In this document: piece after piece, positions 47,305 through 62,817 of the stretch
Layout of the letters: each line of letters begins with the position of its first letter
Numbering within the stretch: the stretch's first letter is position 1
Origin: a virus
Reading direction: 5' to 3' (one strand)
IMG/VR virus record: IMGVR_UViG_3300009104_001476
Length of the DNA: 64,000 bases
Notes under the pieces: generated by a model
What the model was told of the DNA's origin: nothing
The model's input: only the letters and a program-made list of their open reading frames with translations
The model's database searches: none
Translations under genes and position numbers: made by a program

Positions 47305-47922
47305 ATGAATACAAAAATTATAGGATTAAGTGGAGTAGCCGGATCAGGAAAAGATTTATTTTCTAAGATGCTCTTGGAGAGAGCACCAGAATACAAGAAA
47401 CTAAGCCTTGCCTCAAATCTAAAGACAGATTTAAGACAAAAAATTATTGATCAATATGATATTGATATTTTTAATTGTTCTAGAAAAGAAAAGAATTCCA
47501 TAAGGCATGAACTGGTCAATTATGGAAGTAGAAAAAGAACTGAGTCTAAAGGGAGGTTCTGGATTGAAAAGTTAAATCAAGAAGTGGAAAGCATGGAGGA
47601 CTCTATCTGTATTACAGATATTCGATATGATGATTATGAATTCGATGAGGTATACTGGTTAAAAAAGGAATTAAATGGAGTTTTAGTCCACATTGAAAGG
47701 TTTACTATTTTAAATAATAATAAAAAAATTATCGAAGCAGCTAACGAAGAAGAACGTCGAAATGATCCCAAGCTAAGAGAACAAGCTTCTTATAATGTAC
47801 AATGGCCGACATTCGAGGAGAATATCGAAAAACACGCAGGGGGATACGTTAATAGTTTTTTAGCTTGGTTAAGAAATTATGATGAAACCATTAGAGGACA
47901 ATCAACTAATCTGGAGAGTTAA
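47305..47922 (+). CDS. Deoxynucleoside monophosphate kinase (T4 gp1-like)
   Basis: IIGLSGVAGSGKD P-loop, RHELVNYG, FWIEKL, ICITDIRY..E. Confidence 0.8.
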   Translation: MNTKIIGLSGVAGSGKDLFSKMLLERAPEYKKLSLASNLKTDLRQKIIDQYDIDIFNCSRKEKNSIRHELVNYGSRKRTESKGRFWIEKLNQEVESMEDSICITDIRYDDYEFDEVYWLKKELNGVLVHIERFTILNNNKKIIEAANEEERRNDPKLREQASYNVQWPTFEENIEKHAGGYVNSFLAWLRNYDETIRGQSTNLES

Positions 47923-48487
47923 AGTCAGAAAGTGTGATATTAGTCTAATTGAATTAATCAAGAGACACTCTAGGTTGTTTTATAAAATTTCTCAAAAATA
48001 TTTTCCATTTACTGTTAGACCAAACTCACAAAGCGTAGAAGATATAATTGGTAGCTGTGACTCTATAATTTACGAAGCGGTTCTTGAATATAAACCGAGA
48101 AAGAAAGTCAAGTTCTCAACTTGGTTGGGTAACTTTGTTAGATACAAGTGTTTGAATTATTTAAATAAAAACTCTAAACTAATAGATACAGATCAGGATA
48201 AAATGGACTTCTTTTTCCAAAAAAAATCGTTAGAAAATTTCGGGAACGTCAAACGTAAGGATGATTACGTTTTTGTTAACAGTTTGATATCGCAATTTAA
48301 AGATGATAGAATGAAGAAGGTTTTCGAACTGAGATATTTCTCTGGATTAAAAAAAATGACATGGGTAGACATAGGAAAAAAGCTAGAGCTTAGCGCTCAA
48401 ACCGCGATAAATCTACATAACAGGGGGAAAGCTATCCTAAAGAAGAAGTTTGATAGTGAGCTGAATTTTGCAGATAAAATTTTGTAA
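47879..48487 (+). CDS. Phage-encoded RNA polymerase sigma factor (sigma70 family regions 2 and 4)
   Basis: YEAVLEYKPRKKVKFSTWLGNFVR (region 2) and VFELRYFSG..KMTWVDIGKKLELSAQTAINLHNRG (region 4 HTH). Confidence 0.8.
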   Translation: MMKPLEDNQLIWRVKVRKCDISLIELIKRHSRLFYKISQKYFPFTVRPNSQSVEDIIGSCDSIIYEAVLEYKPRKKVKFSTWLGNFVRYKCLNYLNKNSKLIDTDQDKMDFFFQKKSLENFGNVKRKDDYVFVNSLISQFKDDRMKKVFELRYFSGLKKMTWVDIGKKLELSAQTAINLHNRGKAILKKKFDSELNFADKIL

Positions 48488-48836: not shown

Positions 48837-49925
48837 GTGAAACAGTTCTGCGTCAATGCCCCTATCAACAGTGTTTCTTTCGGTCAAGTAACTACGGCCG
48901 TTCTTTTAGAAATGCTCGATAGGGGTATTGAGCCGAACCTTTTCCCAATTGGTGGGAAAATTGATCTTTCTTCCCAAGACTTTGATGAAGAACAGGTCCA
49001 GAAGCTGGAAAAGCTTGCTTCGACAAGTTTATCTTCTCACAAGAGAGAAGATCCTTCTTTCAAATTGTGGCATTTTAACGGTAGTCTAGAGTCCTTTTCC
49101 AAGGAACAGTTATTGTTAACTTTCTACGAAACAGATTCCCCCACGGAAGAAGAGCTAAACTGCTTCAACTCAAACCGAGTTCTCCTAACTTCTAAATACG
49201 CTGTAGAAGTTTTCAGAGATAAGGGGGCAAACGCTGAGTACGTGCCTTTATTTTTTGATAAATTTAATTTCAGGGCTAAAGAAAGAAAATATTTTTCTGA
49301 TGGTAGAATCGTATTCAATCTATGCGGTAAATTTGAGAAAAGAAAACATCACCCAGAAGTTTTAGATGCTTGGGCTAGAAAATACGGGAATAATACTAAA
49401 TACTTTTTACAGTGCGCTATTTTTAATCCTTTTTTATCTCCAGAAGTAAACGATCAACTTATCAGTGACGCCCTAAGGGGAGTTAGGTATAATAATATAC
49501 AAGTCTTGAGACCGATGGCTAAGAATTCCTTATATAATGATTTTTTAAATTCGGGTAACATCGTAATCGGAATGTCTGGAGGAGAAGGCTGGGGTCTTCC
49601 AGAGTTTCATTCGATTGCCTTAGGTAAACATTCTGTGATGTTAAACGCTCATTCGTATAAAGATTTTATTACTGAAGAAAATTCTGTATTAGTCGAGCCT
49701 AATGGTAAAGTTGATTCTGAAGACGGTCTCTTTTTTAAAAAGGGAGACCCATTCAGTCAGGGCCAATTTTTTAAATGGGATGAAGATGACTTTATAGACG
49801 GGTGCGAAAAAGCTATAAAAAGAGTGGAGTCTAATCCCATTAACGAAGCGGGACGAAAACTACAAGAGGACTTTCCTTTATCTCAGACGGTTGATACGAT
49901 TTTGAAAAAAATTGAGGAGATGTAA
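48837..49925 (+). CDS. GT4-like glycosyltransferase
   Basis: GTG start; FNLCGKFEKRKHH, MSGGEGWGLPEFHSIALGK (ExxGxxxxE motif). Confidence 0.8.
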   Translation: MKQFCVNAPINSVSFGQVTTAVLLEMLDRGIEPNLFPIGGKIDLSSQDFDEEQVQKLEKLASTSLSSHKREDPSFKLWHFNGSLESFSKEQLLLTFYETDSPTEEELNCFNSNRVLLTSKYAVEVFRDKGANAEYVPLFFDKFNFRAKERKYFSDGRIVFNLCGKFEKRKHHPEVLDAWARKYGNNTKYFLQCAIFNPFLSPEVNDQLISDALRGVRYNNIQVLRPMAKNSLYNDFLNSGNIVIGMSGGEGWGLPEFHSIALGKHSVMLNAHSYKDFITEENSVLVEPNGKVDSEDGLFFKKGDPFSQGQFFKWDEDDFIDGCEKAIKRVESNPINEAGRKLQEDFPLSQTVDTILKKIEEM

Positions 49926-49926
49926 A

Positions 49927-50289
49927 ATGCCTTTTTATATTTTTGTCAATCCTGATACAGGAGAGGAGATTGAAATTCAACAAAAGATGAAAGAGCCCCA
50001 TGTCTATATTGATCAAAATGGGTTAGAGTGGCAGAGAGTTTTCGTTTCCCCCCAAGCTTGTAACGGGATGAATCATGATCCCTTTAACCCAAGCCATTTT
50101 TTAGAGAAAAGTCGATACTCTAATACGTCTACCTATGGAGAGCTTGAGGATAGAGCTAAAGAGGATAGTGCTCGTAGGGCCAGTAAGAACGGCGGGGTAG
50201 ATCCTTTTAAGAAAAAGTGGTTTAAAGACTACTCTAAAAGGAGAAAAGGCAAGAAGCATCGTGACGATCCGTCTCGATTTTCCGACTAG
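49927..50289 (+). CDS. FmdB-like zinc-ribbon homologue lacking the cysteines
   Basis: MPFYIFVNPDTGEEIEIQQKMKEPH follows the MPxYxY(C)xx(C)GxxFE pattern; ATG at 49927. Confidence 0.55.
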   Translation: MPFYIFVNPDTGEEIEIQQKMKEPHVYIDQNGLEWQRVFVSPQACNGMNHDPFNPSHFLEKSRYSNTSTYGELEDRAKEDSARRASKNGGVDPFKKKWFKDYSKRRKGKKHRDDPSRFSD

Positions 50290-50403: not shown

Positions 50404-52869
50404 ATGAGCGGCAAAATTAACGTAAAAAAAAGAAACGGGAGACTAGAGCCCCTTAACATCGACAAGATAAATCTATGCGCAGAAAGAGCTTGCGGTGAAC
50501 TAGAAAATGTTTCAGCAAGTGAAGTGGTCTTAGACGCGCACGTTCAGCTTTACGATAAAATCACTACGAAAGAGATCGACAAGGCGCTTATCATGTCTGC
50601 TCGGTCTAAAATCGAAAAAGATCCTAACTATTCCTATGTAGCTGCTCGTTTATTTTTAGGAAATATTCATAAAGAAGTCTTTGGAGAGAGTAGAGATAAG
50701 GATATGTTTGAGCAGCAATACAGGCTTTCTTTCGTAAGAAATATTAAAAAGCTTGTTAAGTTTGGAACTTTAAGCGACAAACTTTTATCTTACGACCTTA
50801 AAAAACTTTCAGAACATTTAGTGCTAGATCGTGATTATAAATTTAAATACCTTGGGCTGCAAATTGTGCACGATCGTTATCTTTTACATATAGATGGTAG
50901 GCGTTTAGAAGCCCCACAAGCTTTCTGGATGCGTGTCGCCATGGGTCTAGCCCTTAACGAAGACGACAAGGAGGGTAAGTGTATCGAGTTCTATAATGCA
51001 ATTTCTCAATTTTATATTTGTCCCTCTACGCCGACCCTGTTTAATAGTGGTACAGTCCGTAGTCAGTTAAGCTCTTGTTATCTAAACACATTCGATGATA
51101 GCATTGATGGGATATTCGAGGGCTTATGGCAAGAAGCGCGTAAAAGTAAATTTGCTGGCGGTCTTGGTTTTGATGTCACTCCGTTTAGAGCCAGCAACTC
51201 TTACGTAAAAGGAACGAATGGGAAATCCTCAGGACTTATCCCTTGGCTTAAAATCTACAACGACACACTTATCGCTGTTGATCAAGGAGGGAAAAGGCCG
51301 GGAGCAGGATGCGCTTACATAGAATCTTGGCATCTAGACATTGAAGATTTTCTTGACCTTAAGAAGAATACAGGAGACGATCGTCGTCGTTGTCATGATA
51401 TGAATACAGCCAACTGGCTTCCTGATTTATTTATCAAGAGAGTACAAGAAGATGGCGACTGGTATTTATTTTCCCCTTCAGATACTAGAGACTTACACGA
51501 GCTTTACGGAGAGGCTTTTGATAAAAAATATAAATCTTACTGTAAAAAAGCGGAAAAAGGAATTATAGAGAATTTTAAAAAAGTAGAAGCTAAAGACCTT
51601 TGGAAAAGGATGCTCCGTGTGCTATTTGAAACGGGACACCCTTGGATGACCTTTAAGGACAACGCTAACATGCGTTACTCTAACGCTCACGAAGGCGTAG
51701 TCCATAGCTCAAATCTTTGTACTGAAATCTTTCTACATACAAAACCATCTAAATATGAATTAGGTGAAAAAACAGAGGTAGGAGAAACAGCGGTATGCAA
51801 TTTAAGCTCTATAAACTTAAAAGAACATATAAAAGAAAATAACAAATTAGATTATAAATTATTAGCTAAAAATATAGCTATTCAAATGAGGATGCTAGAC
51901 AATGTTATTGATTTAAACTTCTACCCAACGAAAGAAGCAGAGAAGGCCAACATGAGCCATCGACCCGTCGGAGCAGGTACGATGGGCTGGGCAGATGTTT
52001 TTAATGCTCATAAAATCAATTTCTCTTCAGAAGATGCAGTGAAGTTCTCTGACGAATTGTATGAATTTATATCCTATCATTGCCTACAGAACTCTAGCAA
52101 GCTAGCAGAAGAAAAAGGGTCTTATTCCTCATATGAAGGCTCTCTATGGAGCCAAGGGATATTACCTATTGACACTTATAAATCTTTAATGGACTATTTA
52201 GGAGAGAAACCTATTATTCATAGAGGTAAAAAATATGTCCCTGAATTGGATTGGAAAGATTTACGTGCTTGTATTGGGTTACACGGGATGCGTAATAGTA
52301 ACACTATGGCTATCGCTCCTACTGCTACTATATCTTATATTCAAGGTTGCTCTGCTTCTATTGAGCCCGATTTTTCTACTTTGTTCGTATATGAAAACAA
52401 AAGCGGGAACCTTACGATCGTAAACGAGTGGTTTATTAACGAATGTAAGGGGCTGGGGGTATGGAACCCAAAACTAATTGAGATGCTTAAAGCTGTCGAT
52501 GGGGATGTTTCTCGTTTAAACGGCGAGCTTCCCGAAGACCTTAAGAGCCGTTATCGAACAGCCTTTGACCATGATCAATTTTTATTAATTGATTCTGCTG
52601 CAGCTAGACAGAAATGGATAGACATGGGACAAAGTTTAAACTTGTTTAACTCCTCGACTTCGCTTAAGTATTTAAATGACCTTTATATGCATGCTAGAAA
52701 CAGAGGGTTAAAATCAACATATTATTTGAGAAATCGTGCAGCAAGCAAAATTGAAAAGTCTACGGGTGGTGGTGACGTTAGTGATAATGATCCAAGTGAT
52801 AGTGATAGTGATGAGCTTGATCCTAAGGCTTGCAGCATCCTAGACCCAACATGTGAGAGTTGTCAATAA
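50404..52869 (+). CDS. nrdA: Class I ribonucleotide reductase alpha subunit with ATP cone
   Basis: VKKRNGRLE ATP cone, TPTLFNSG, QLSSCY, SNLCTEI, AVCNLSS, IAPTATIS, KSTYYLR, C-terminal CESCQ. Confidence 0.97.
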   Translation: MSGKINVKKRNGRLEPLNIDKINLCAERACGELENVSASEVVLDAHVQLYDKITTKEIDKALIMSARSKIEKDPNYSYVAARLFLGNIHKEVFGESRDKDMFEQQYRLSFVRNIKKLVKFGTLSDKLLSYDLKKLSEHLVLDRDYKFKYLGLQIVHDRYLLHIDGRRLEAPQAFWMRVAMGLALNEDDKEGKCIEFYNAISQFYICPSTPTLFNSGTVRSQLSSCYLNTFDDSIDGIFEGLWQEARKSKFAGGLGFDVTPFRASNSYVKGTNGKSSGLIPWLKIYNDTLIAVDQGGKRPGAGCAYIESWHLDIEDFLDLKKNTGDDRRRCHDMNTANWLPDLFIKRVQEDGDWYLFSPSDTRDLHELYGEAFDKKYKSYCKKAEKGIIENFKKVEAKDLWKRMLRVLFETGHPWMTFKDNANMRYSNAHEGVVHSSNLCTEIFLHTKPSKYELGEKTEVGETAVCNLSSINLKEHIKENNKLDYKLLAKNIAIQMRMLDNVIDLNFYPTKEAEKANMSHRPVGAGTMGWADVFNAHKINFSSEDAVKFSDELYEFISYHCLQNSSKLAEEKGSYSSYEGSLWSQGILPIDTYKSLMDYLGEKPIIHRGKKYVPELDWKDLRACIGLHGMRNSNTMAIAPTATISYIQGCSASIEPDFSTLFVYENKSGNLTIVNEWFINECKGLGVWNPKLIEMLKAVDGDVSRLNGELPEDLKSRYRTAFDHDQFLLIDSAAARQKWIDMGQSLNLFNSSTSLKYLNDLYMHARNRGLKSTYYLRNRAASKIEKSTGGGDVSDNDPSDSDSDELDPKACSILDPTCESCQ

Positions 52870-53879
52870 TGAGTAAAACAGGATTATTATTAGGAGAGGA
52901 GGTCGCAGGGGTAAATCAAATTTTACCTCACAAACATAAACTGGCTTGGGATTTATTTATTAAGGGGGTGGCTAATAATTGGTCCCCAGCAGAGATAAAT
53001 ATGTCTACCGACATTGAGCAATGGAAAGGCGACGATCTCTTAAAAGATGAAAAGCTTTTAGTTAAAAGATGTTTGGGTTTTTTTGCAGGTACCGAGTCCT
53101 TGGTTGGCAATAACCTACTGCTTACAGTTAACAGATGGATTACAGACGCAGAGTGTAGACAATACATCCTTAGACAGGCTTACGAAGAGTCTTTGCATAA
53201 TTGGACCGTCGTTACTTGCTGTGATACTTACGGTTTAAAAATATCTGAAGTCTATGAGGCTTATTTGAACGTGCCCTCTATTAAAGCTAAGGACGACTTC
53301 TTAATGGAAATTACAACAGATACGAATAGGCAGGATTTTTCTACTAAAACCGTAGAAGGTAAACGAGAATTTCTTAGAAATCTAATTACTTACTATATCG
53401 TTTGCGAGGGCACGTTTTTCTTTAGCGGTTTTGCGATGTTACTTGCGTTAGGCAGACAGAATAAACTTCCCGGACTTTCTGACCAGATCAGATATACTCT
53501 TAGAGATGAGAGTTTACACATACAGTTTGGGACTTATTTAATAAATACAATCAAAGAACAATACCCATCAGTGTGGACAAAAAAATTTGAACAAGAAACC
53601 ACAGAGCATATAAAGAAAGCGGTTGAACTAGAGATAGCCTACGCTCATGATGTTCTGCCGAGAGGGATATTAGGCCTGAATGCTGAAATGTTTGTTGATT
53701 ACATGCAATATATAGGTAATAGGCGTTTAGAAGGTATTGGTATTGACTTTCGTTTCGATAGCGACAACAATCCATTTCCATGGCTTGCTGAAGTTGTAGA
53801 TATGGGAGCAATGACTAATTTTTTCGAAAGAAAAGTTAAAGATTATCAAAGCTCAGGAGTTTTAGAAGATGACTTCTAG
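52869..53879 (+). CDS. nrdB: Class I ribonucleotide reductase beta subunit lacking the radical Tyr (class Ic/R2c-like)
   Basis: TAATG overlap with nrdA; FFAGTESLV, EESLHNWTV, CEGTFFFSGF, RDESLH, NFFERKVKDY. Confidence 0.93.
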   Translation: MSKTGLLLGEEVAGVNQILPHKHKLAWDLFIKGVANNWSPAEINMSTDIEQWKGDDLLKDEKLLVKRCLGFFAGTESLVGNNLLLTVNRWITDAECRQYILRQAYEESLHNWTVVTCCDTYGLKISEVYEAYLNVPSIKAKDDFLMEITTDTNRQDFSTKTVEGKREFLRNLITYYIVCEGTFFFSGFAMLLALGRQNKLPGLSDQIRYTLRDESLHIQFGTYLINTIKEQYPSVWTKKFEQETTEHIKKAVELEIAYAHDVLPRGILGLNAEMFVDYMQYIGNRRLEGIGIDFRFDSDNNPFPWLAEVVDMGAMTNFFERKVKDYQSSGVLEDDF

Positions 53880-54412
53880 AACAAAACTAAGCCTTTAATT
53901 TCTTGAATCTTAACTAGTCCGTACCAAGACATACTTCTATTGTCTCCTATCACCCATACGTATCCTTCAGGGACTTTTCCGACATCTTCGTCTGTATTTA
54001 GAAACAGCCATTCGTTTTTTGGTTTTTTCATTCTCTCTTCTTCTGGCTCTAACCAATATGTGATATTTTTATTGGGAGAACGACTATCTACATATTGTTT
54101 CCCATTTATGAAAATATATCCGTTTTGGATTTTTATATAGTCTCCCTCCAGACCGATGACCCTTTTTATTACGCTATCCCCGTCCTTTTCATCTACAGCA
54201 ATAATCACCTGTCCCCTTTGAGGAGTCCAGTTTTCTCCTAACGATTTAGCTCTATGGATTAGTATCAATTCTTTATCTTCGTAAGTTGGCAACATGCTCT
54301 CTCCGGTGGAATAAATAAACCCAAAATCCTTAAAAAATGGGTAAGTAATGATTATTACAATTAAACATACCCTAAAGATTTTGTTCTTAAATATGGATTT
54401 TATAGTATTCAT
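53876..54412 (-). CDS. lepB: Signal peptidase I (S26)
   Basis: N-terminal TM segment; GESMLPT (catalytic Ser), VIKRVIGLEGD (catalytic Lys), GDNRSMS. Confidence 0.9.
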   Translation of the reverse strand: MNTIKSIFKNKIFRVCLIVIIITYPFFKDFGFIYSTGESMLPTYEDKELILIHRAKSLGENWTPQRGQVIIAVDEKDGDSVIKRVIGLEGDYIKIQNGYIFINGKQYVDSRSPNKNITYWLEPEEERMKKPKNEWLFLNTDEDVGKVPEGYVWVIGDNRSMSWYGLVKIQEIKGLVLF

Positions 54413-55117: not shown

Positions 55118-56617
55118 ATGGATTTTTCTTTTGGAATAGTCACGAGTGGGGAAGATCATGATAGACTTCTCGAAATTGTAGAGTCTATTCATAGCCAAAA
55201 GATACCCAATTACGAGATTATTATCGTAGGCGGAGACGGTAGCGTTTTCTTTTCGGAAGACTCAAAATTCTTAAAATCTGCTGAAGGATGTAATTTTTCG
55301 TTTAGGCATATCCCCTTTCAAGAATCCCTAGAGCCATCAGGCTGGATTTCAAAAAAGAAAAACATAATAACTTCCTTAGCTGTTTTTGATCACGTCGTAT
55401 ACCTGCACGATTACCACGTTTTTCAAGAGGGGTGGTATCAGAGCTTTGTAGAGTTTGGCTCGGACTGGGATATATGTATGAACTCTATCCTGACGATAGA
55501 GGGGGAGAGGTTTAGAGACTGGATAACTTGGGATCACCCAGAATTAGGGAGACAGGCTGAGCTAGATTATGACGATGACAAAAAACTTGAATATCAATAT
55601 ATATCTGGAGGGTATTGGGTCGCTAAGAGAAGGGTGATGCTGTATAACCCTATAGACGAAAAGTATACGCGAGGCACAGAGTATGAAGACGTGGACTGGT
55701 CGTTGAGAGTGAGGGGGAACTACAGATATCGGATGAACAAAAACTCCGTAGTGAAGCATAACAAAGTCCATAGAGAAACTCACACTAGGGGATATTTTCG
55801 AGCGCTAGAGATGGGGAAAGAAGAGCCAGAGGAGAACATTAAAAACTGCTGGATATTAACTTTCGATAGGCCCAAGGCTTTAAACAGACAAATCAAAACT
55901 TTCGGAGAGTATGGCTTTAAAGTAAACGTATTCTCTAACCACCCAGAAGTTGACATAGAAGAAGACAATAAAAAATATGTAGATCAAATTATAATCAACA
56001 ATCTTTCAGACCCCAAGGCGACCTCTTACTGCGCTAGAAGCTGGAACAATATGTTTATAAAATGTTTTATAGATAAGGAGGTGGACGGCTCTGTATTTGT
56101 CCAAGACGACACGCACGTGCATCATCCAGAGCTTGGAAAATATTTAATAAATAAAGCTAAAGAGTATGATTTTATCTGGGGTCCCTTAGGAGATACTTTT
56201 TTCTTTTTAAAGAGAGAAGTCTTAAAAAAAGTTGGATGGTTTGATGAAAGGTATTTAGGTTGCTACTGCGCAGATGCAGATTTTTTAAAGAGGGTTTATT
56301 TTAATTATGATAAAAACAAAATAAGCATACAAGAAATCCATGACTGGGGATTCGAGCATAATTCAATAAAAATATCAGAATATATTGATTGGAGTATGGC
56401 TTCTAGAGGAGTAGACGAAAGCTACAAAAACCAACATGATCAATTACAGAATGATTGTGGGCAGGACAAAGTAGTTTCTTATTCTCAAGGTCACTTTAAA
56501 AGTAAGTGGCAGACCCCGGGAAATGGCTTGAACAATATAGGACCAATTATAGACTATGAGCCGCCAGATGTCGTTCATGAGATAGATTGGTACCCTTGGT
56601 TTAGTAAAATTATTTAA
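55118..56617 (+). CDS. Two-domain GT2-like glycosyltransferase
   Basis: Domain 1: FSFGIVT, YEIIIVGG, VYLHDY, YEDVDWS. Domain 2: ILTFDRP, ARSWN, VFVQDDT, VGWFDERYLG.Y..DADF. Confidence 0.8.
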   Translation: MDFSFGIVTSGEDHDRLLEIVESIHSQKIPNYEIIIVGGDGSVFFSEDSKFLKSAEGCNFSFRHIPFQESLEPSGWISKKKNIITSLAVFDHVVYLHDYHVFQEGWYQSFVEFGSDWDICMNSILTIEGERFRDWITWDHPELGRQAELDYDDDKKLEYQYISGGYWVAKRRVMLYNPIDEKYTRGTEYEDVDWSLRVRGNYRYRMNKNSVVKHNKVHRETHTRGYFRALEMGKEEPEENIKNCWILTFDRPKALNRQIKTFGEYGFKVNVFSNHPEVDIEEDNKKYVDQIIINNLSDPKATSYCARSWNNMFIKCFIDKEVDGSVFVQDDTHVHHPELGKYLINKAKEYDFIWGPLGDTFFFLKREVLKKVGWFDERYLGCYCADADFLKRVYFNYDKNKISIQEIHDWGFEHNSIKISEYIDWSMASRGVDESYKNQHDQLQNDCGQDKVVSYSQGHFKSKWQTPGNGLNNIGPIIDYEPPDVVHEIDWYPWFSKII

Positions 56618-56624
56618 TATCATT

Positions 56625-57416
56625 ATGTTAATAGAGTATAAAAAAATAAAAAACGACCCATCTCTTAAGCATTTTGACGAGACGGACTTTACTGTTATAG
56701 ACGAGACTAACAGTAGTCCGGGAGACACAGCCAAAAGGTTTAAGGTGGGGTGGAGTAGTGCCGAAGAGCATGGAACTGTTTGTGGGATGGGTTCTACGAA
56801 GGAAAATACTGCTAACGTATTGAAATCTTTGCCTTATGTATTCAAAAGCATTAACGCTAAAAAGGTGAATGATGCGGGCTGTGGAGATTTCGCTTGGGTT
56901 AAACACGCTGACTTAAAAGGAATAGACTACATGGGGTACGACGTGGCAGAGTGGGCCGAGCAAGATGAATTTAAATTTAAGAAGCTAGATGTCATAAATC
57001 AAAAAATGAGGAAAGCCGATCTAATAATTTGTAGGGACGTTTTTTTTCATATACCGAACAATCTAATTATAAAAGCTATTAAGAATATGAAAGCATCGAA
57101 GACTCCTTATTTATTGTGTTCCTCAGCATACATAGCTCCTTACGATCACGGAGACATGACTCTTGGTGAGCCCGAGCATGACGGCTTGAAGATTTTTAAT
57201 AACGAGAGTCGTGAAAAATTCCAATGGACTAAGGATGGAGAAGACCTTGTCGCAAGTTTTGGTTTAAATTCGAGCCGCACGTCTGTTCCATTTTGCACTG
57301 TAAATTTAGAAGCGCCCCCTTTCAATTTTCCAGATCCGATCCTTTCTATTACAGAAAGAGATCAGAATAATAGGTTCCTAGGGCTTTGGAACCTTAAGGA
57401 TATTAGCTTGGATTAA
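56625..57416 (+). CDS. Class I SAM-dependent methyltransferase
   Basis: VNDAGCGDFAW, YMGYDV, ADLIICRDVFFHI. Confidence 0.8.
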   Translation: MLIEYKKIKNDPSLKHFDETDFTVIDETNSSPGDTAKRFKVGWSSAEEHGTVCGMGSTKENTANVLKSLPYVFKSINAKKVNDAGCGDFAWVKHADLKGIDYMGYDVAEWAEQDEFKFKKLDVINQKMRKADLIICRDVFFHIPNNLIIKAIKNMKASKTPYLLCSSAYIAPYDHGDMTLGEPEHDGLKIFNNESREKFQWTKDGEDLVASFGLNSSRTSVPFCTVNLEAPPFNFPDPILSITERDQNNRFLGLWNLKDISLD

Positions 57417-57417
57417 A

Positions 57418-58800
57418 ATGATTAAACTTGTCATATTTGACATGGATGGAGTTCTTGTGGATGCGAGAGAACTTCACTACGAAGCTCTCAACAGGGCCCT
57501 CGCAGAGGTCGATGAAAAATTTGTAATATCTAGAGAAGAGCACCTATCTACCTACGACGGATTACCCACCTCAAAGAAACTTAACGCCTTGACAGAGGAT
57601 AAAGGGCTACCCAAAGAGTGTCACGAAAAAGTCTGGAAAGGTAAACAGGAAGCAACTCAACGAATAATTAACGAAGAGATGTCTCACGACGAGAGACTTA
57701 GGCAAATACTTAAAGCGTTAAAGAAAGACGGGCGCTCCATATGTGTGGCTTCAAACTCTATTAGAGAGAGCGTAAAGTTAATGTTGATGAGGAAGGGGCT
57801 TTTAGAGTTTATCGATTTTTATTATTCGAATCAAGATGTCAAAAACCCTAAACCTAACACTGAGATGTACTTGAAATGCATGATAAAGGCGGGGGTAGAT
57901 CCCGTAGACTGCATCATTATAGAAGATTCTCACATTGGTAGACTAGGGGCAGAAAGATCAGGGGCTCACCTCTGTGCGGTCACGAACGTAGAAGACGTAT
58001 CTTACGATAAAATAAAGCAATGTATAGTTGAAGCAGAAGGAAAAAGCGTTTTTAAGCCTAAATGGCAGGGAGGAAATATGAAAGTCTTAATACCTATGGC
58101 GGGAGCAGGGAGCCGTTTCCAGCAAGCTGGATATACGTTTCCTAAGCCTCTAATTGAAGTTTACGGAAAGCCCATGATACAAGTCATAGTAGATAACTTG
58201 AACGTGGACTCGGAACATATTTTTATAGTGCAGGAAAAACACTATGAAGAATATCATTTACAGCAGACTTTAGAAACAATATCCCCTCATTGTAAAATCG
58301 TGCGAGTGGACAAGCTGACAGAGGGCGCAGCATGTACCACCCTGCTAGCGGAAGAGTATATTGATAATGACGAACCGTTATTGATAGCAAATTCAGATCA
58401 GTTTGTTGATTGGGACAGTAATCTATTTATGTACTCAATGCTGGGAGATCAAATTGACGGAGGCATACTAACCTTTAAATCTGCTCACCCCAAGTGGAGC
58501 TACGCTAAGTTAAATGAAGAGGGCTTCGTTTCTGAGGTCGCGGAGAAAAAACCAATTAGCGACATTGCTACGGTTGGAATTTATTTTTGGAAAAAAGGCT
58601 CAGATTATGTTAAGTATGCTAAACGGATGATTGACAAAGACATAAGGGTGAATAATGAGTTCTATACCGCCCCCGTTTATAATGAAGCTATAGCAGATAA
58701 TAAAAAAATTAAAATTTTTAACATCGATGAAGACGGGATGTGGGGACTCGGAACCCCAGAGGACTTAGATTACTTTCTAAAAAATCATGAAAAAATATAA
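57418..58800 (+). CDS. HAD phosphatase fused to a nucleotidyltransferase
   Basis: FDMDGVLVD, VASNS, PKPNTE, IIEDS (HAD); LIPMAGAGSRF, FPKPLI, TEGAACT, IANSDQ, WGLGTPEDL (NTP transferase). Confidence 0.9.
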   Translation: MIKLVIFDMDGVLVDARELHYEALNRALAEVDEKFVISREEHLSTYDGLPTSKKLNALTEDKGLPKECHEKVWKGKQEATQRIINEEMSHDERLRQILKALKKDGRSICVASNSIRESVKLMLMRKGLLEFIDFYYSNQDVKNPKPNTEMYLKCMIKAGVDPVDCIIIEDSHIGRLGAERSGAHLCAVTNVEDVSYDKIKQCIVEAEGKSVFKPKWQGGNMKVLIPMAGAGSRFQQAGYTFPKPLIEVYGKPMIQVIVDNLNVDSEHIFIVQEKHYEEYHLQQTLETISPHCKIVRVDKLTEGAACTTLLAEEYIDNDEPLLIANSDQFVDWDSNLFMYSMLGDQIDGGILTFKSAHPKWSYAKLNEEGFVSEVAEKKPISDIATVGIYFWKKGSDYVKYAKRMIDKDIRVNNEFYTAPVYNEAIADNKKIKIFNIDEDGMWGLGTPEDLDYFLKNHEKI

Positions 58801-59113
58801 TCTAAATGATATGACAGGGGGCTGGGTAGCGGGCGACTTTAGTCCAACCATTATCGAAACCAAAGATTTTGAGGTTTCGGTTAAGCATTATAAGAAGGGA
58901 GAGTACCAAGAGAAGCACGTCCATAAAAAAGCGGACGAGTTATCTATTATTGTGCAAGGTTCAGCAAGGATGAATGGAGAAACTTATGAAAAAGATGATA
59001 TTATTTTAATGGAGAAAGGAGAGGCTACAGATTTTTATCCTTTGGAAGACGGCACCATAACTTGCGTTATCAAGACCCCTTCTGTTGTAGGAGATAAATA
59101 TCTTGTTGATTAA
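58787..59113 (+). CDS. Cupin-fold protein
   Basis: GWVAGDFSP, EVSVKHY, HVHKKADE, VIKTPSVVGDKY. Confidence 0.75.
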   Translation: MKKYNLNDMTGGWVAGDFSPTIIETKDFEVSVKHYKKGEYQEKHVHKKADELSIIVQGSARMNGETYEKDDIILMEKGEATDFYPLEDGTITCVIKTPSVVGDKYLVD

Positions 59114-59115
59114 AA

Positions 59116-59550
59116 ATGATTCTTATAGCACATAGAGGAAATACTTCTGGAGCTAAACCTCTTGTTGAAAACGATCCGGTATATATAAAACTAGCTCTCG
59201 AAGAAGGATTTAACGCAGAGGTAGACGTTTGGTTTATTAATGGTAATTATATTTTAGGTCATGACTCTCCTCAATATTTCGTTAAAGAATCTTTTTTAGA
59301 GGATGACAGACTATGGTGCCATGCTAAGAGCCCAGAAACTCTTAAGGCTATGGTCAAGAATAAAAAAATACACTGTTTTTGGCACCAGAAAGATGATGTG
59401 ACATTAACTTCTAGAAATATTATTTGGACTTATCCCAAAAAAAAATTATTAAAAGGGGCAGCTTGCGTAATGCCAGAACTAGGTTACGAAGGCAACATCG
59501 AAGAATGTTGTGCTATATGTAGCGATTATATAAAGGACTATAAAAAATGA
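59116..59550 (+). CDS. Short glycerophosphodiester phosphodiesterase-like protein
   Basis: LIAHRGN, VEND, AEVDVW, LGHD, LWCHAK, AICSD. Confidence 0.75.
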   Translation: MILIAHRGNTSGAKPLVENDPVYIKLALEEGFNAEVDVWFINGNYILGHDSPQYFVKESFLEDDRLWCHAKSPETLKAMVKNKKIHCFWHQKDDVTLTSRNIIWTYPKKKLLKGAACVMPELGYEGNIEECCAICSDYIKDYKK

Positions 59551-60620
59551 AAAAAGTATTAGTAACAGGAATCTTAGGCCAAGATGGAGCAAACATGGCT
59601 GAATATTTACTTCTTAGAAACGACGAGCCCGTTCAGGTATACGGCATGATGCGTAGAAGCTCTATACCTAACTTTACTAATACTGATAAGTTCAGACATC
59701 ATGACAACTTTGAGTTTGTGTATGGAGACTTATCTGACGATGTGAGTATTGATAATTTAATTAAAAGAATAGAACCCGATTATTTTATCAATTTTGCAGC
59801 TAACTCTTTTGTTGGTTGTTCTTGGGATATGCCAGAGCAGGTGATGGACGTTAATGCTTTGGGTGTTCTTAGATGCCTAGAGTCTATACGTAAATTTAAA
59901 CCTGATTGTCGTTTTTATAGCGCTGGTAGTAGTGAAGAATGGGGAGATGTAGACTATTCTCCTCAAGACATAGATCACCCAATTAAACCAAGGAGCCCAT
60001 ACGGAGCTTCGAAAGCTTCCGCCAGACATTTAATTAAAGTTTACAAAGAGTCTTATGGTTTGTACGCGGTACACGGAATACTTTTTAACCATGAAGGGAC
60101 TAAGCGAGGGGAGGAGTTTGTTACTCGTAAAATTACGAAGGGTGTTGCTAGAATTAAAAAACATTTAGAAAACAGAGACCTAGCAATAGAAGCGGTAGAG
60201 CCTATAGAGTTAGGAAACTTGGAAGCTAAACGAGATTGGAGCGATAGCGAAGATTTTGTAGAGGGCGTTTGGTTAATGCTTAATCAGAACGAGCCTAAAA
60301 ACTACATCTTAAGTAGTGGAGAAACGCACTCGATTAGAGAGTTCTTAAATAAAGCCTTTAAGTACGCGGGTATATCTGGTTGTTGGGTTGATATAGAAGG
60401 AGAGCCCTTGAAGACTAAATTTATGCTTAATTCAAACATGCCTGAACCTTTAGTAGTAATTAACGAAAAGTTTTACAGGCCAGCGGATGTTGACCTTTTA
60501 CTGGGAGACTCTACCCCAATCAGAGAGGAACTTGGGTGGAACCCAAAAGTTTCATTTGACGAATTAGTGAAAAAGATGGTAAACTTTGATATTGAAATCG
60601 AAAAAAGAAAAAGTAATTGA
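59547..60620 (+). CDS. gmd: GDP-mannose 4,6-dehydratase
   Basis: LVTGILGQDG, YSAGSSEEWG, PRSPYGASK, GILFNHEG..RGEEFVTRKIT, LGNLEAKRDW, FYRPADVDLLLGD. Confidence 0.95.
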   Translation: MKKVLVTGILGQDGANMAEYLLLRNDEPVQVYGMMRRSSIPNFTNTDKFRHHDNFEFVYGDLSDDVSIDNLIKRIEPDYFINFAANSFVGCSWDMPEQVMDVNALGVLRCLESIRKFKPDCRFYSAGSSEEWGDVDYSPQDIDHPIKPRSPYGASKASARHLIKVYKESYGLYAVHGILFNHEGTKRGEEFVTRKITKGVARIKKHLENRDLAIEAVEPIELGNLEAKRDWSDSEDFVEGVWLMLNQNEPKNYILSSGETHSIREFLNKAFKYAGISGCWVDIEGEPLKTKFMLNSNMPEPLVVINEKFYRPADVDLLLGDSTPIREELGWNPKVSFDELVKKMVNFDIEIEKRKSN

Positions 60621-60981
60621 GAGATTATTAGCCTTCGGCTTCGTTAAGCCTCAATGTTTATATATATTAAAAAATTTTGAGTTCCAAAGGGTGGTAGATG
60701 TTACCAACTATTTCAATTGGTTAAAAAGGAATAAACCTAGTAAAGATCATACTCAAAAATATTTTTATTTTCTTTTAAAAAATTTTGATTTTGATAAAAC
60801 TTGGGCGGAATACCAAAGATACTATAACGAGAAGAAAAACACAGCCTCTCTTGACTTTTCGAAGAAAAAGAAGTACCTTTTATCTGGTAAAAAGGTAGGC
60901 AAAGATGGAGAGGTTGATAAGAAACCTAAGAATGTTATAGACTTTATTAAAAATGGCACGAAAAGCGAAAACACAAGCTGA
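60586..60981 (+). CDS. Hypothetical basic protein
   Basis: 131-aa ORF with a TTG start (start uncertain), overlapping both neighbours. Confidence 0.5.
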   Translation: MILKSKKEKVIERLLAFGFVKPQCLYILKNFEFQRVVDVTNYFNWLKRNKPSKDHTQKYFYFLLKNFDFDKTWAEYQRYYNEKKNTASLDFSKKKKYLLSGKKVGKDGEVDKKPKNVIDFIKNGTKSENTS

Positions 60982-62050
60982 GACAGGCTCCCCACTGGGC
61001 CAGATACAACAGTATCTAGAAGATCATAAGGGAGATCATTACAATTTCGAAGAAGAGAGGAAATATACTATTTCTAGTGGAAGCCTTTTGTTGGATATAG
61101 AAATGGGTGGGGGCATTAAACCCGGCATTATTAGAGCTTCAGGAGTCACAGAGGGAGGAAAAACTTCATGTGCTTTATCTTTTGCTCGTAACTTCCAAAA
61201 GATGGACAACTCAATGGTTATTTACATTAAAGCCGAGGGTCGACTTTCTGATGATATGATTGACAGGGCGGGCATAGATACTAATGAGGAAAAATGGTTT
61301 GTATATAAATGTAACGTTTATGAGTCGGTTATAGACTTCATGAGGCAAATGGTTAAAGATAACCCCACAGACACAAGATATATGTTCATTATTGATTGTA
61401 TGGATGCCCTAGTTCCTAGAGGTGATCTTGAGAAGGGGGCGGACGAAGCACTTAAAGTTGCGGGAGGTTCTCTTCTTAGCTCAGACTTCTTAAGGCGTAT
61501 GGCTTTAGGTTTAGCTACTCGTGGGCACATTTGCTATATGATTTCTCAAGTGAGGGCGACAGTTAAGATTAACCCTTACGAGAAAGGAGATCCAAAGATT
61601 ACTAATGCTTCAGGAGGCAACGCTATACTTCATTATAGTGATTGGATTTTAGAATTTCAACCCCGTTGGAATAAGGACTTGATTACTACTGGTCCGAAGG
61701 GCAAAGAGGAGCAGCTGGGTCATTGGTGTAAAATAATTTTTAGAAAAACCTCCAATGAGAAAACAGGGGTGGAAGTAAGATATCCGATTAAATACAGAGC
61801 TCAGGCTGGCCAAAGCATCTGGGTCCAAAAAGAGGTAGCAGATATGATGATAGCTTGGGATATGGCCGTAACTAAGGGGGCTTGGGTTACGGTTTCTGAC
61901 GAAATTATAGAAGAAGTCAAAGAAAAAACTGGTTTAGAATTTAAAAAGCAGCATCAGGGTGTAGATAACTTTGGAAAGTACTTCGAAGAAGAGCAAGAGA
62001 TTGGAAAATTTATGTTTAAGAAGTTTAGAGAAGCCTTAAAGAAACAATGA
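60953..62050 (+). CDS. recA: RecA/UvsX-like recombinase
   Basis: ISSGSLLLDIEMGGG, GVTEGGKT (Walker A), YIKAEG, FIIDCMDAL, ISQVR, ASGGNAILHYSD. Confidence 0.88.
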   Translation: MARKAKTQAETGSPLGQIQQYLEDHKGDHYNFEEERKYTISSGSLLLDIEMGGGIKPGIIRASGVTEGGKTSCALSFARNFQKMDNSMVIYIKAEGRLSDDMIDRAGIDTNEEKWFVYKCNVYESVIDFMRQMVKDNPTDTRYMFIIDCMDALVPRGDLEKGADEALKVAGGSLLSSDFLRRMALGLATRGHICYMISQVRATVKINPYEKGDPKITNASGGNAILHYSDWILEFQPRWNKDLITTGPKGKEEQLGHWCKIIFRKTSNEKTGVEVRYPIKYRAQAGQSIWVQKEVADMMIAWDMAVTKGAWVTVSDEIIEEVKEKTGLEFKKQHQGVDNFGKYFEEEQEIGKFMFKKFREALKKQ

Positions 62051-62817
62051 TCTCCTTAGATAAAAAATTTATTTTTATGCACATCCCCAGAACGGGAGGG
62101 ACAAGTGTAGAAAATTCGGTTTTGTCTAATTACGCTTACTATCTAGAGTCTGAACTAGAATCAGATAACCCAAACACTTTTATACAAAAGTATTGGGGTG
62201 GAGAATTTTTAGATAAGCGTCAAGCTAACTATAATGATGGAAGTTTAACTGAGAAGGGAATGCTCGTAGGTAAACATTTTAATCTTTATGAATATTATTT
62301 AGCTTTTACTAACAAGCATGATATTGATAAGTACTTTGCCGAGCAAGACGCTGGAGATACATTGAGGAACCCATTAGATGATTTTTATAGATTCACTATC
62401 GTAAGAAATCCTTGGGATAGGATTGTTTCTTACTTTTTCGCGGCAGCGAAAGAATATAATGAAGAAAATTTTAAGCATTTTGTGAGCATGGGTCAGTACG
62501 TTTTCACAGATAATGAGAGGCCTGATTATTTTAAGGATGATCTAGCTTTAATTTTTAATACTCATTCAATCAGCTCTTGGCTTAATAATGACTCCAGCCT
62601 TTTTGATCATTTTATGAGGTTTGAGAATATAAATGAAGACTTTAAGACTGTTTGTGAAGATTTAGACATAGACTATGAAGAGCTACCCCACGTTAATAAA
62701 ACAACGGAGAAGAAAAATCATTATAGTTATTACTACAACGACGAGACAAGAGCTATAGTAGCAGAAAACTATGCGGATGATATAAAGAACTTTGGGTACG
62801 AGTATGAGACTGTATAA
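62047..62817 (+). CDS. Sulfotransferase (Sulfotransfer_2-like)
   Basis: FMHIPRTGGTS (5'-PSB loop), FTIVRNPWDRIVSY (3'-PB), RFENINEDF, LPHVN, YSYYY. Confidence 0.85.
   Translation: MISLDKKFIFMHIPRTGGTSVENSVLSNYAYYLESELESDNPNTFIQKYWGGEFLDKRQANYNDGSLTEKGMLVGKHFNLYEYYLAFTNKHDIDKYFAEQDAGDTLRNPLDDFYRFTIVRNPWDRIVSYFFAAAKEYNEENFKHFVSMGQYVFTDNERPDYFKDDLALIFNTHSISSWLNNDSSLFDHFMRFENINEDFKTVCEDLDIDYEELPHVNKTTEKKNHYSYYYNDETRAIVAENYADDIKNFGYEYETV

What the first reader, a model, noticed from the sequence alone, without database searches (positions are those of the whole stretch)
52869..53879. Phage NrdB lacks the radical tyrosine and has the Asp-to-Glu ligand switch of class Ic (Mn/Fe) RNRs
Seen, numbering from ATG 52869: the first metal ligand is Glu76 (FFAGTESLV, codon 53094), followed by Glu107 and His110, and the His+4 position is Val114 (EESLHNWTV, codon 53208). 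The distal ligands (EGTFF, RDESLH) and the C-terminal relay Tyr (VKDY) are intact, and NrdA has all its catalytic residues. Established: E. coli R2 has D84/E115/H118/Y122. Chlamydia trachomatis R2c has E89/E120/H123/F127 (the same 31-residue spacing) and uses a Mn(IV)/Fe(III) cofactor instead of a tyrosyl radical. Inference: a functional tyrosyl-radical-free RNR in a phage, with Val rather than Phe and an extra Trp at His+2. It may tolerate nitric oxide or peroxide stress and may hint at the host group.
Basis: partly seen in the sequence, partly recalled or inferred. Interest (0 to 1): 0.75.

Follow-up and report, generated by a model that had tools for sequence, protein, structure and literature searches.

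The report
Tyrosine-free class Ic-like phage RNR
A large uncultured marine phage carries a complete ribonucleotide reductase whose small subunit has valine where most such enzymes keep their radical tyrosine. It belongs to a widespread "class Ic-like" marine clade that a 2026 preprint has already noted but nobody has tested at the bench.

Summary
NrdB (window 52869-53879, 336 aa) has Glu76, Glu107, His110, Glu180, Glu214 and His217. It has Val114 at the radical-tyrosine position, Trp112 at His+2 and the C-terminal Tyr326.

Its closest solved relatives are the Chlamydia trachomatis and 6Y2N class Ic R2 proteins: E about 1e-108, 50% identity, and an AlphaFold model with TM 0.89 and rmsd 1.1 A. 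An ungapped alignment puts Val114 on Ct Phe127 and Glu76 on Ct Glu89. NrdA, which overlaps NrdB by one base, keeps all catalytic residues. The surrounding genes are clearly phage (lambda-type tail tip, collagen fibres, UvsX).

The feature is not unique:
- 439 IMG/VR contigs carry close relatives, and 78 of the 80 I read have Val or Ile at this site.
- Alphaproteobacterial chromosomes carry an Ile version.
- Harrison et al. 2019, citing Lundin 2009, give the RNRdb class Ic (NrdBzc) criterion as Phe, Leu or Val at this site.
- A 2026 preprint already names a marine viral "subclass Ic-like" clade with Ile or Val.
- This scan flagged the same motif in at least seven other genomes.

Two points are new here. 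All Val/Ile/Ala sequences form one supported clade, and that clade also replaces the radical-pocket Ile (E. coli I234) with Thr. Trp112 is not linked to the loss of tyrosine. The Mn/Fe cofactor is inferred, not shown.

The parts
50404..52869 (+). nrdA, the class I RNR large subunit (821 aa). It has one N-terminal ATP cone (residues 5-91) and the catalytic residues C225, N437, C439, E441, C465, Y773/Y774 and C-terminal C817/C820.
   Evidence: Pfam ATP-cone, Ribonuc_red_lgN and Ribonuc_red_lgC. NCBIfam NF005544 at 1060 bits, cut-off 965. Best solved relative is P. aeruginosa NrdA 5IM3, E 4e-251, with all motifs aligned. Motif positions.
52869..53879 (+). nrdB, the class Ic-like small subunit (336 aa). 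Its ATG shares one base with the nrdA stop codon (TAATG), which suggests translational coupling.
   Evidence: AlphaFold model with pLDDT 90.2. Foldseek best match Ct NrdB 4M1I, TM 0.89, rmsd 1.1 A, 50% identity.
53094..53096 (+). Glu76, the first metal ligand. It is Asp in class Ia/Ib and Glu in class Ic/Id.
   Evidence: The first ligand is Glu in all 80 IMG/VR relatives read.
53187..53198 (+). Glu107 to His110 (ExxH), metal ligands 2 and 3. Glu106 just before them is the second-sphere residue typical of NrdBz.
   Evidence: E107 and H110 are invariant in alignment A1. Pattern compared with Table 4 of PMC6370689.
53208..53210 (+). Val114, at the position of the radical Tyr (E. coli Y122, Ct F127).
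   Evidence: Val in 108 and Ile in 13 of 121 near homologues. Val in 63 and Ile in 15 of 80 viral contigs; the pattern search mis-hit in the other 2.
53202..53204 (+). Trp112 (His+2, Ct H125). It is specific to this subclade and not linked to tyrosine loss.
   Evidence: Trp in 7 of 14 Val/Ile/Ala-clade representatives and 7 of 38 Asp+Tyr representatives. It is Leu in L003/L004 and His in the alphaproteobacterial copies.
53406..53408 (+). Glu180, metal ligand 4. Pocket residues Phe184 and Phe188 follow it, and the clade-typical Cys179 precedes it.
53496..53498 (+). Thr210, equivalent to E. coli I234 of the hydrophobic radical pocket (Ct I223). Thr is typical of the Val/Ile/Ala clade.
   Evidence: Thr in 12 of 14 clade representatives. 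Ile in 35 of 38 Asp+Tyr, 7 of 7 Glu+Tyr and 13 of 20 Glu+Phe/Leu representatives. Thr in 79 of 80 viral contigs.
53508..53519 (+). Glu214 to His217 (ExxH), metal ligands 5 and 6. Asp213 is the second-sphere residue.
   Evidence: Invariant in A1.
52980..52982 (+). Trp38, equivalent to Ct W51 and E. coli W48 on the electron/radical-transfer route.
   Evidence: Invariant in A1; aligned.
53844..53846 (+). Tyr326, the C-terminal relay Tyr (Ct Y338, E. coli Y356). It is followed by the acidic tail ending in DDF that binds R1.
   Evidence: nearly invariant in A1.

Best explanation
This is a working two-subunit class I ribonucleotide reductase of an uncultured marine tailed phage with a record of at least 142 kb. 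It makes deoxyribonucleotides for phage DNA synthesis. Its small subunit is of the class Ic kind. It has no tyrosine at the radical site (Val114) and has Glu instead of Asp as the first metal ligand. The oxidising equivalent must therefore be stored on the dinuclear metal centre itself, most probably a Mn(IV)/Fe(III) pair as in Chlamydia trachomatis R2c, and not on a tyrosyl radical. During turnover the hole would pass by Trp38 and C-terminal Tyr326 to Tyr773/Tyr774 and Cys439 of NrdA. Shown here: gene integrity, ligand pattern, alignment of Val114 with Ct Phe127, fold, purifying selection, the intact catalytic partner, phage context, and membership of a distinct Val/Ile/Ala clade. Inferred only: enzymatic activity, the identity of the metals, and any ecological benefit such as lower iron need or stress tolerance. 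I put about 0.85 on a functional tyrosine-free RNR and about 0.55 on Mn/Fe specifically.
For: Residues and coordinates. RNR small-subunit family above curated cut-offs. Best solved relatives are the class Ic proteins (1SYY, 4D8F and 6Y2N, E 1e-99 to 1e-108), aligned without gaps across the site. AlphaFold model pLDDT 90.2; top Foldseek hits are all Ct NrdB at TM 0.89-0.90 and rmsd 1.1 A. The eight first- and second-sphere residues equal the published NrdBzc pattern. W38, Y209 and Y326 are conserved, and no other Tyr or Trp is specifically conserved in the clade, so nothing could stand in for the radical Tyr. NrdA is complete and closest to the NrdAz-type P. aeruginosa enzyme. Against relatives, synonymous sites are saturated (pS above 0.8) while pN is 0.09-0.2, which means strong purifying selection. 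RNR identity (78-87%) far exceeds that of neighbouring genes (35-55%) in syntenic phage contigs. Phage context: J-type central tail fibre, tail assembly and minor tail proteins, collagen-like fibre, UvsX-like recombinase. The same operon and neighbours occur on many marine contigs, and 439 IMG/VR contigs encode relatives. Literature: RNRdb class Ic accepts Phe, Leu or Val (PMC6370689); a GOV 2.0 viral 'subclass Ic-like' clade has Ile or Val (PMC12918982).
Against: No member of the Val/Ile/Ala clade has been characterised biochemically (PMC12918982), so activity and metal content are extrapolated from enzymes that are 44-50% identical. In the quick tree the stand-in for the characterised R2c proteins (P0128) does not group directly with this clade, and the deep nodes are unresolved. 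The radical pocket is remodelled relative to Ct R2c (Val114, Thr210, Asn111, Cys179, Cys117/118), which could change the metal preference. The first-sphere ligand set is shared with the di-manganese class Id, so ligands alone do not fix the metals. I found no thioredoxin or glutaredoxin gene in the record, so the reductant would have to come from the host.
Confidence: 0.75

Rival explanations
1. The enzyme is a tyrosine-free RNR but uses a cofactor other than Mn/Fe, for example a high-valent di-manganese centre as in class Id, or a di-iron centre. On this reading the Val/Ile/Ala clade is a separate, unnamed subclass and not class Ic proper.
For: Class Id has the same six first-sphere ligands (Table 3 of PMC6370689). 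The clade is monophyletic (SH-aLRT 98). It has its own pocket signature of Thr210, Asn111 and Cys179. The preprint authors kept the group apart from class Ic and found no clear link to a single trace metal.
Against: Class Id proteins are far more distant: PDB 6CWO/6CWP at E 1e-13 to 1e-15 over part of the length, against 1e-108 for R2c. Class Id keeps the Tyr and has Cys or Ser, not Glu, at second-sphere position 7; here it is Glu106. The AU test does not reject a single clade of all Glu-type tyrosine-less sequences including the R2c stand-in (p 0.39).
Confidence: 0.17
2. The protein is not a radical generator. It is either an R2-like ligand-binding oxidase or an inactive, structural beta subunit like yeast Rnr4.
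For: R2lox proteins also lack the radical Tyr and have a Glu first ligand. Weak R2lox matches exist (PDB 7QBK, 3EE4; NCBIfam R2lox models).
Against: R2lox scores are far below their cut-offs (62 bits against 194) while the RNR beta model is above its own. The gene overlaps nrdA by one base. It keeps the C-terminal Tyr326 and the acidic R1-binding tail, which an oxidase does not need. All six ligands are intact, unlike Rnr4-type subunits. It is the only R2 gene in the record, so an inactive copy would leave NrdA without a partner.
Confidence: 0.03
3. The operon is a bacterial gene pair lying in host DNA of a 'provirus' record and is not a phage gene.
For: IMG/VR labels the record as a provirus. 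Close relatives sit in MAGs named Pseudomonadales, Cellvibrionales and Woesebacteria. Genuine alphaproteobacterial chromosomes carry a 61-62% identical operon.
Against: Tail genes lie about 10 kb upstream and a UvsX-like recombinase about 7 kb downstream. The ORFs in between are mostly small and match no family. The MAG contigs L002 and L003 share further phage genes with the record. The operon's GC content (0.383) equals that of the phage record (0.393). 439 IMG/VR viral contigs carry it.
Confidence: 0.05

Closest known systems
Chlamydia trachomatis NrdB (R2c, class Ic; PDB 1SYY, 4D8F, 4M1I) and the R2c of PDB 6Y2N
   Same: The first- and second-sphere residues are the same (E,E,H,E,E,H plus E,D). 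Neither has a Tyr at the radical site. Trp (Ct W51), Tyr (Ct Y222) and the C-terminal Tyr (Ct Y338) are conserved. The fold is the same at rmsd 1.1 A, with 50% and 44% identity.
   Different: Val replaces Phe at the radical site. Thr replaces Ile at the pocket position equivalent to E. coli I234. Asn, Trp and Cys replace Thr, His and Met at residues 111, 112 and 179. The partner NrdA has one ATP cone and is 821 aa; from general knowledge, Ct NrdA has three cones. The source is a phage, not an intracellular bacterium.
'Subclass Ic-like' viral RNR clade of GOV 2.0 (bioRxiv 2026, PMC12918982)
   Same: Both are marine viral contigs whose alpha subunit is nearest to NrdAz and whose beta subunit lacks the Tyr and has Ile or Val. 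That is the pattern found here: Val or Ile in 78 of 80 IMG/VR relatives, many homologues from Tara samples. It is almost certainly the same clade.
   Different: The preprint treats the group ecologically: 269 sequences, anti-correlated with predicted iron, peaking at the deep chlorophyll maximum. It gives no ligand, pocket, structural or cellular-relative analysis. I could not compare sequences directly.
RNRdb NrdBz group: NrdBza (Asp+Tyr, for example the P. aeruginosa type) and NrdBzc (class Ic)
   Same: NrdA is closest to P. aeruginosa NrdA (5IM3). NrdB has the NrdBz second-sphere Glu. Asp+Tyr, Glu+Tyr, Glu+Phe/Leu and Glu+Val/Ile/Ala forms are interleaved among the nearest 150 cluster representatives.
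   Different: The window's protein falls in a separate, supported Val/Ile/Ala clade (27 of 90 rows, SH-aLRT 98). Its position relative to the Phe/Leu forms is unresolved.
Cyano SP ('class If') beta subunits of cyanopodoviruses such as P-SSP7 (Harrison et al. 2019, PMC6370689)
   Same: Both are phage-encoded class I beta subunits without the radical Tyr and with a Glu first ligand.
   Different: Cyano SP has Asp, not Glu, at second-sphere position 7. Its alpha subunit lacks an ATP cone, and it branches away from NrdBzc. Here position 7 is Glu106, the ATP cone is present, and the nearest relatives are R2c proteins.
Nearest phage-collection relatives: Pseudomonas putida phages vB_PpuM (for example Peetri) and the record 'Acinetobacter phage MD-2021a'
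   Same: They are the best tblastn hits in the 50,697-record phage collection, at 43-44% identity, with nrdA upstream of nrdB (adjacent in MD-2021a; separated by an HNH endonuclease and a hypothetical gene in Peetri).
   Different: Both keep the radical Tyr, and MD-2021a also keeps Asp as the first ligand. No record in that collection was closer than 44% identity.

Membership tests
Class I RNR small subunit (Pfam PF00268; NCBIfam NF005550) | Profile match above the curated cut-off over the full length | tested here: met
   PF00268 at 250 bits (cut-off 33.6), profile positions 2-281 of 281. NF005550 at 432 bits (cut-off 309).
Class I RNR small subunit | Six metal ligands on the four-helix bundle, plus a C-terminal Tyr and an R1-binding tail, next to an nrdA gene | tested here: met
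   E76, E107, H110, E180, E214, H217 and Y326. nrdA overlaps nrdB by one base. NrdA is complete.
Class Ic (RNRdb NrdBzc) | Glu instead of Asp as the first metal ligand | tested here: met
   E76 aligns with Ct E89.
Class Ic (RNRdb NrdBzc) | Non-tyrosine residue (Phe, Leu or Val) at the radical site | tested here: met
   V114 aligns with Ct F127. The criterion is quoted from PMC6370689. PMC12918982 states that its class Ic reference sequences have only Phe or Leu.
Class Ic (RNRdb NrdBzc) | Second-sphere Glu before ligand 2 and Asp before ligand 5 | tested here: met
   E106 and D213, compared with Table 4 of PMC6370689.
Class Ic (RNRdb NrdBzc) | Phylogenetic grouping with the characterised R2c proteins | tested here: inconclusive
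   R2c proteins are the best solved relatives. In the 90-row tree, however, the R2c stand-in P0128 sits outside the Val/Ile/Ala clade and the deep nodes are unresolved. The AU test does not reject one clade of all tyrosine-less Glu forms (p 0.39).
Class Ic (RNRdb NrdBzc) | Mn(IV)/Fe(III) cofactor as the radical initiator | not testable with these tools
   This needs metal analysis, EPR or Mossbauer spectroscopy, and an activity assay.
Class Id (NrdBi, Mn2) | Tyr retained at the radical site, Cys or Ser at second-sphere position 7, and close similarity to F. johnsoniae-type proteins | tested here: not met
   V114 and E106. Class Id structures match only at E 1e-13 to 1e-15 over part of the protein.
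R2-like ligand-binding oxidase (R2lox) | Match to R2lox models above cut-off, with no R1 partner and no C-terminal relay Tyr | tested here: not met
   Best R2lox model scores 62 bits against a cut-off of 194. nrdA is adjacent and Y326 is present.
Cyano SP / proposed class If | Asp at second-sphere position 7 and an alpha subunit without an ATP cone | tested here: not met
   E106. ATP cone at NrdA residues 5-91. Criteria from PMC6370689.

The most novel reading that the evidence does not exclude
The Val/Ile/Ala clade is not simply class Ic with a smaller side chain. It would be a separate subclass whose remodelled, more polar radical pocket (Val114, Thr210 in place of the near-universal Ile, Asn111, Cys179 next to ligand Glu180) supports a different metal pair, oxidation state or activation route from the chlamydial Mn(IV)/Fe(III) centre. 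That difference might be tuned to iron-poor open-ocean hosts. The clade is shared between abundant marine phages and small-genome Alphaproteobacteria.
Probability: 0.17. Interest if true: 0.7.

Novelty: new member of a known kind. Interest (0 to 1): 0.38.

Why it matters
Class I RNR subclasses are defined by how the small subunit stores its oxidant, and each new cofactor type (Ic, Id, Ie) came from noticing odd residues at exactly these positions. This phage gene belongs to an abundant marine group: 439 IMG/VR contigs here and 269 GOV 2.0 sequences in the preprint. The group lacks the tyrosine, has never been expressed, and also has cellular counterparts. A bench test would show whether Mn/Fe chemistry extends beyond the chlamydial type to Val/Ile forms. 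It could also show whether these phages lower their iron demand in iron-poor water. For this scan, the practical point is that the same motif will keep turning up in this phage lineage and should be treated as one known clade, not as separate discoveries.

Tried and rejected
- DNA-level search of the phage collection with the operon found only short 69-70% matches inside nrdA, so there is no close cultured relative.
- dN/dS could not be computed because synonymous sites are saturated (pS 0.82-0.88). I report only pN against pS.
- The coordinates of the AlphaFold model are not available to scripts. I therefore could not measure the distance of Trp112, or of any Tyr, from metal site 1. I used helix register and clade conservation instead.
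- I looked for a substitute radical residue, meaning a Tyr or Trp conserved only in the Val/Ile/Ala clade. There is none. Y176 and Y232 are enriched, but Y176 also occurs in half of the other groups.
- I asked whether tyrosine loss arose once or several times. The free tree splits the tyrosine-less forms, but the AU test does not reject a single clade (p 0.39), so this is unresolved.
- No thioredoxin, glutaredoxin or second RNR catalytic gene was found in the 142-kb record. The record is estimated to be 83% complete, so absence is weak evidence.
- R2lox, class Id, Cyano SP and 'host gene' readings were rejected; the reasons are in the rival explanations and the membership table.
- I could not infer the host. 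The nearest cellular copies are in unnamed Alphaproteobacteria MAGs at only 61-62% identity, and the closer 'bacterial' hits are mis-binned phage contigs.
Full report
**1.
Window 52869-53879 (+) translates without stops to a 336-aa protein.
- Metal ligands: E76 (53094), E107, H110, E180, E214 and H217.
- Other sites: W112, V114 (GTC 53208) and Y326.

The protein matches Pfam Ribonuc_red_sm over the whole profile (2.9e-74). It also matches NCBIfam NF005550 above its curated cut-off (432 bits against 309). The ATG shares one base with the stop codon of the upstream gene (TAATG).

One detail needs correcting. The 31-residue spacing between the first two ligands is the same in E. coli (D84 to E115), so it does not point to class Ic.

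**2. Alignment with solved structures.**
The four best PDB sequence matches are all class Ic R2 proteins:
- C. trachomatis NrdB (1SYY, 2ANI, 4D8F), E about 7e-108.
- 6Y2N, E 4.5e-99.

The next hit (yeast R2) is at 4e-33 and E. coli R2 is at about 1e-13. The alignment has no gap from residue 13 to beyond 290. It puts E76 on Ct E89, E107 on E120, H110 on H123, W112 on H125, V114 on F127, Y209 on Y222 and Y326 on Y338.

An AlphaFold model built from 52 diverse homologues has mean pLDDT 90.2. Its best Foldseek matches are all Ct NrdB chains, with TM 0.89-0.90, rmsd 1.1 A and 50% identity.

The eight first- and second-sphere residues (E, E, H, E, E, H, then E106 and D213) equal the pattern tabulated for RNRdb NrdBzc. 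They differ from the other patterns in these ways (Tables 3 and 4 of PMC6370689):
- Class Ia: Asp as first ligand.
- Class Id: Cys or Ser at second-sphere position 7.
- Cyano SP: Asp at position 7.

**3. The partner subunit.**
The upstream ORF (50404-52869, 821 aa) has one ATP cone plus the all-alpha and barrel domains of NrdA. It exceeds the cut-off of NCBIfam NF005544. Its closest solved relative is P. aeruginosa NrdA (5IM3, E 4e-251). That alignment conserves every catalytic motif:
- SSCYL (C225).
- NLCTE (N437, C439, E441).
- AVCNL (C465).
- TYYLR (Y773, Y774).
- The C-terminal CxxC (C817, C820).

This is the only R1 gene and the only R2 gene in the 142-kb record.

**4. It is a phage gene.**
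The window is the last 64 kb of a 142,348-base IMG/VR record labelled 'provirus'. Upstream of the operon lie:
- A collagen-like tail fibre.
- A 1703-aa J-type central tail fibre.
- Tail assembly and minor tail proteins.

About 7 kb downstream lies a UvsX-like recombinase. Most of the intervening ORFs match no family.

The same operon, with the same neighbours, recurs on many marine metagenome contigs of up to 186 kb. These neighbours are a glycosyltransferase, a 120-aa ORF, nrdA, nrdB and an opposed signal peptidase. In addition, 439 IMG/VR contigs encode a close relative.

Two 'bacterial' MAG contigs carrying the closest GTDB copies (L002 at 87%, L003 at 74%) share further phage genes with the record. 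They are therefore mis-binned relatives. The operon's GC content (0.383) matches that of the record (0.393).

**5. The gene is under constraint.**
Against four relatives, the proportion of synonymous differences is 0.82-0.88, which is saturated. The non-synonymous proportion is only 0.09-0.20. In syntenic contigs the RNR genes are 78-87% identical in protein, while the flanking genes are 35-55% identical.

**6. How common is the pattern?**
- All 121 nearest homologues (83-90% identical) have Glu as first ligand, with Val (108) or Ile (13) at the radical site.
- Of 80 IMG/VR loci read, 78 show Val (63) or Ile (15). The pattern search mis-hit in the other two. Thr210 is present in 79.
- Two alphaproteobacterial chromosomes (1.65 and 1.32 Mb) carry nrdA-nrdB with Glu and Ile at 61-62% identity. 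The one examined (L008) is flanked by ordinary bacterial genes.

A full search of 1.84 billion cluster representatives gave these counts among the best 150:

| First ligand + radical-site residue | Representatives |
|---|---|
| Asp + Tyr | 52 |
| Glu + Phe | 24 |
| Glu + Val | 14 |
| Glu + Tyr | 7 |
| Glu + Ile | 4 |
| Glu + Leu | 4 |
| Glu + Ala | 2 |

The remaining representatives were fragments or carried other residue pairs.

Val at this site is therefore a frequent natural variant. It occurs in cells as well as phages.

**7. Phylogeny.**
In a 90-row maximum-likelihood tree, all Glu+Val/Ile/Ala sequences form one clade (27 rows, SH-aLRT 98). The window sits in a tight phage subclade (7 rows, SH-aLRT 99). 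That subclade is sister to L003/L004, and next to the alphaproteobacterial group.

P0128 stands in for the characterised R2c proteins; it scores 688 bits to 6Y2N and 460 bits to Ct. It falls elsewhere among Asp+Tyr forms, but the deep nodes are unresolved. An AU test does not reject a single clade of all tyrosine-less Glu forms (log-likelihood difference 8.2, p 0.39). Whether the tyrosine was lost once or more than once remains open.

**8. What is specific to the clade.**
I compared 14 Val/Ile/Ala representatives with 20 Phe/Leu, 7 Glu+Tyr and 38 Asp+Tyr representatives.

| Position | Val/Ile/Ala clade | Other groups |
|---|---|---|
| Thr210 | 12/14 | Ile in 35/38 Asp+Tyr, 7/7 Glu+Tyr and 13/20 Phe/Leu |
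| Asn111 | 13/14 | mostly Thr |
| Cys179 | 9/14 | Met, Leu or Phe |
| Cys117 / Cys118 | 10/14 and 11/14 | mostly Ile |

By position (ligand Glu minus 4), Thr210 is the equivalent of E. coli I234, one wall of the hydrophobic pocket around Y122. The loss of the aromatic residue thus goes together with a smaller and more polar pocket.

No Tyr or Trp is conserved specifically in this clade, so I see no candidate for a relocated radical residue. Trp112 is present in only 7 of 14 clade representatives and also in 7 of 38 Asp+Tyr relatives. It is Leu or His in the nearest non-identical relatives. At His+2 it lies on the opposite helix face from His110 and Val114. I therefore read it as a subclade feature with no shown link to the radical chemistry.

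**9. Comparison with the literature.**
- Harrison et al. 2019 (PMC6370689) state that RNRdb assigns NrdBz proteins to class Ic when the Tyr site holds Phe, Leu or Val.
- A 2026 preprint (PMC12918982) describes 269 GOV 2.0 viral sequences whose alpha subunit is nearest to NrdAz and whose beta subunit lacks the Tyr and has Ile or Val.
- The preprint calls these 'subclass Ic-like'. It finds them anti-correlated with predicted iron and most abundant at the deep chlorophyll maximum. It notes that no member has been characterised.

This window matches that description. Within the phage collection searched, the nearest records (P. putida vB_PpuM phages and 'Acinetobacter phage MD-2021a', 43-44% identical) keep the Tyr. 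This scan has flagged the same motif in at least seven other genomes.

**10. Mechanism and verdict.**
The most likely reading is a functional phage class I RNR. Its small subunit would store the oxidant on the metal centre, and Mn(IV)/Fe(III) is the best guess by homology. The hole would pass by W38 and Y326 to NrdA Y773/Y774 and C439.
- Shown: gene integrity, ligand pattern, fold, the partner subunit, selection and phage context.
- Inferred: activity, the metals, and any ecological benefit.

The finding is real and correctly interpreted. It is a new member of a clade that is already recognised but uncharacterised, so it is not a new kind of system. The modest additions here are the clade's monophyly, its cellular members and the co-varying Thr at the pocket position.

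Noticed in passing
window 49912-50289 (+): A 120-125 aa ORF sits directly upstream of nrdA and matches no Pfam or NCBIfam family. It keeps this position in related phage contigs (L002, L015-L021). It could be an RNR-associated factor or simply a conserved neighbour.
   Followed up: partly
window 53876-54412 (-): A signal peptidase I gene (Peptidase_S26, 6e-22) lies on the opposite strand and overlaps the nrdB stop codon by 4 bases. It is conserved next to nrdB in relatives. This is an unusual gene for a phage.
   Followed up: no
proteins P0122, P0125, P0126, P0131, P0139; locus L004 1-7005: Several representatives of the same Val/Ile/Ala clade are about 650 aa long and match the query in two separated stretches, which suggests inteins or other insertions within NrdB. 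In L004 the nrdA reading frame appears broken, and about 4 kb of unrelated genes separate it from nrdB. The window's genes have no insertion.
   Followed up: no
L002, L003 (GTDB MAG contigs): Contigs binned as 'Pseudomonadales' and 'Candidatus Woesebacteria' MAGs share phage genes beyond the RNR with this record. They look like mis-binned phage contigs, so their taxon labels should not be used as host evidence.
   Followed up: partly
L023 (CAKLQH020000007.1, 'Acinetobacter phage MD-2021a'): The flanks of nrdAB in this 'phage' record carry a LysR regulator, a PhzF-family protein and an HcpC-like protein. This part of the record looks like bacterial chromosome.
   Followed up: no
window 47305-48487 (+): A P-mevalonate-kinase-like P-loop protein (below the Pfam cut-off) is followed by a sigma-70 region 2 protein, 2-3 kb upstream of the RNR operon. 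Both are conserved in relatives.
   Followed up: no
window 55118-62817 (+): Downstream of nrdB lies a run of sugar-nucleotide and modification genes around the UvsX-like recombinase: a HAD-nucleotidyltransferase fusion, an epimerase/dehydratase, a methyltransferase and a sulfotransferase. Relatives carry a different sugar cassette at the same place (an aminotransferase, an acetyltransferase and glycosyltransferases in L019).
   Followed up: no
whole record G000: IMG/VR classes the record as a 'provirus'. However, a contig carrying the identical NrdB with the same gene order is 186 kb long, and related viral contigs reach 160-178 kb. The label may result from trimming a large lytic-type genome that is rich in metabolic genes.
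   Followed up: no
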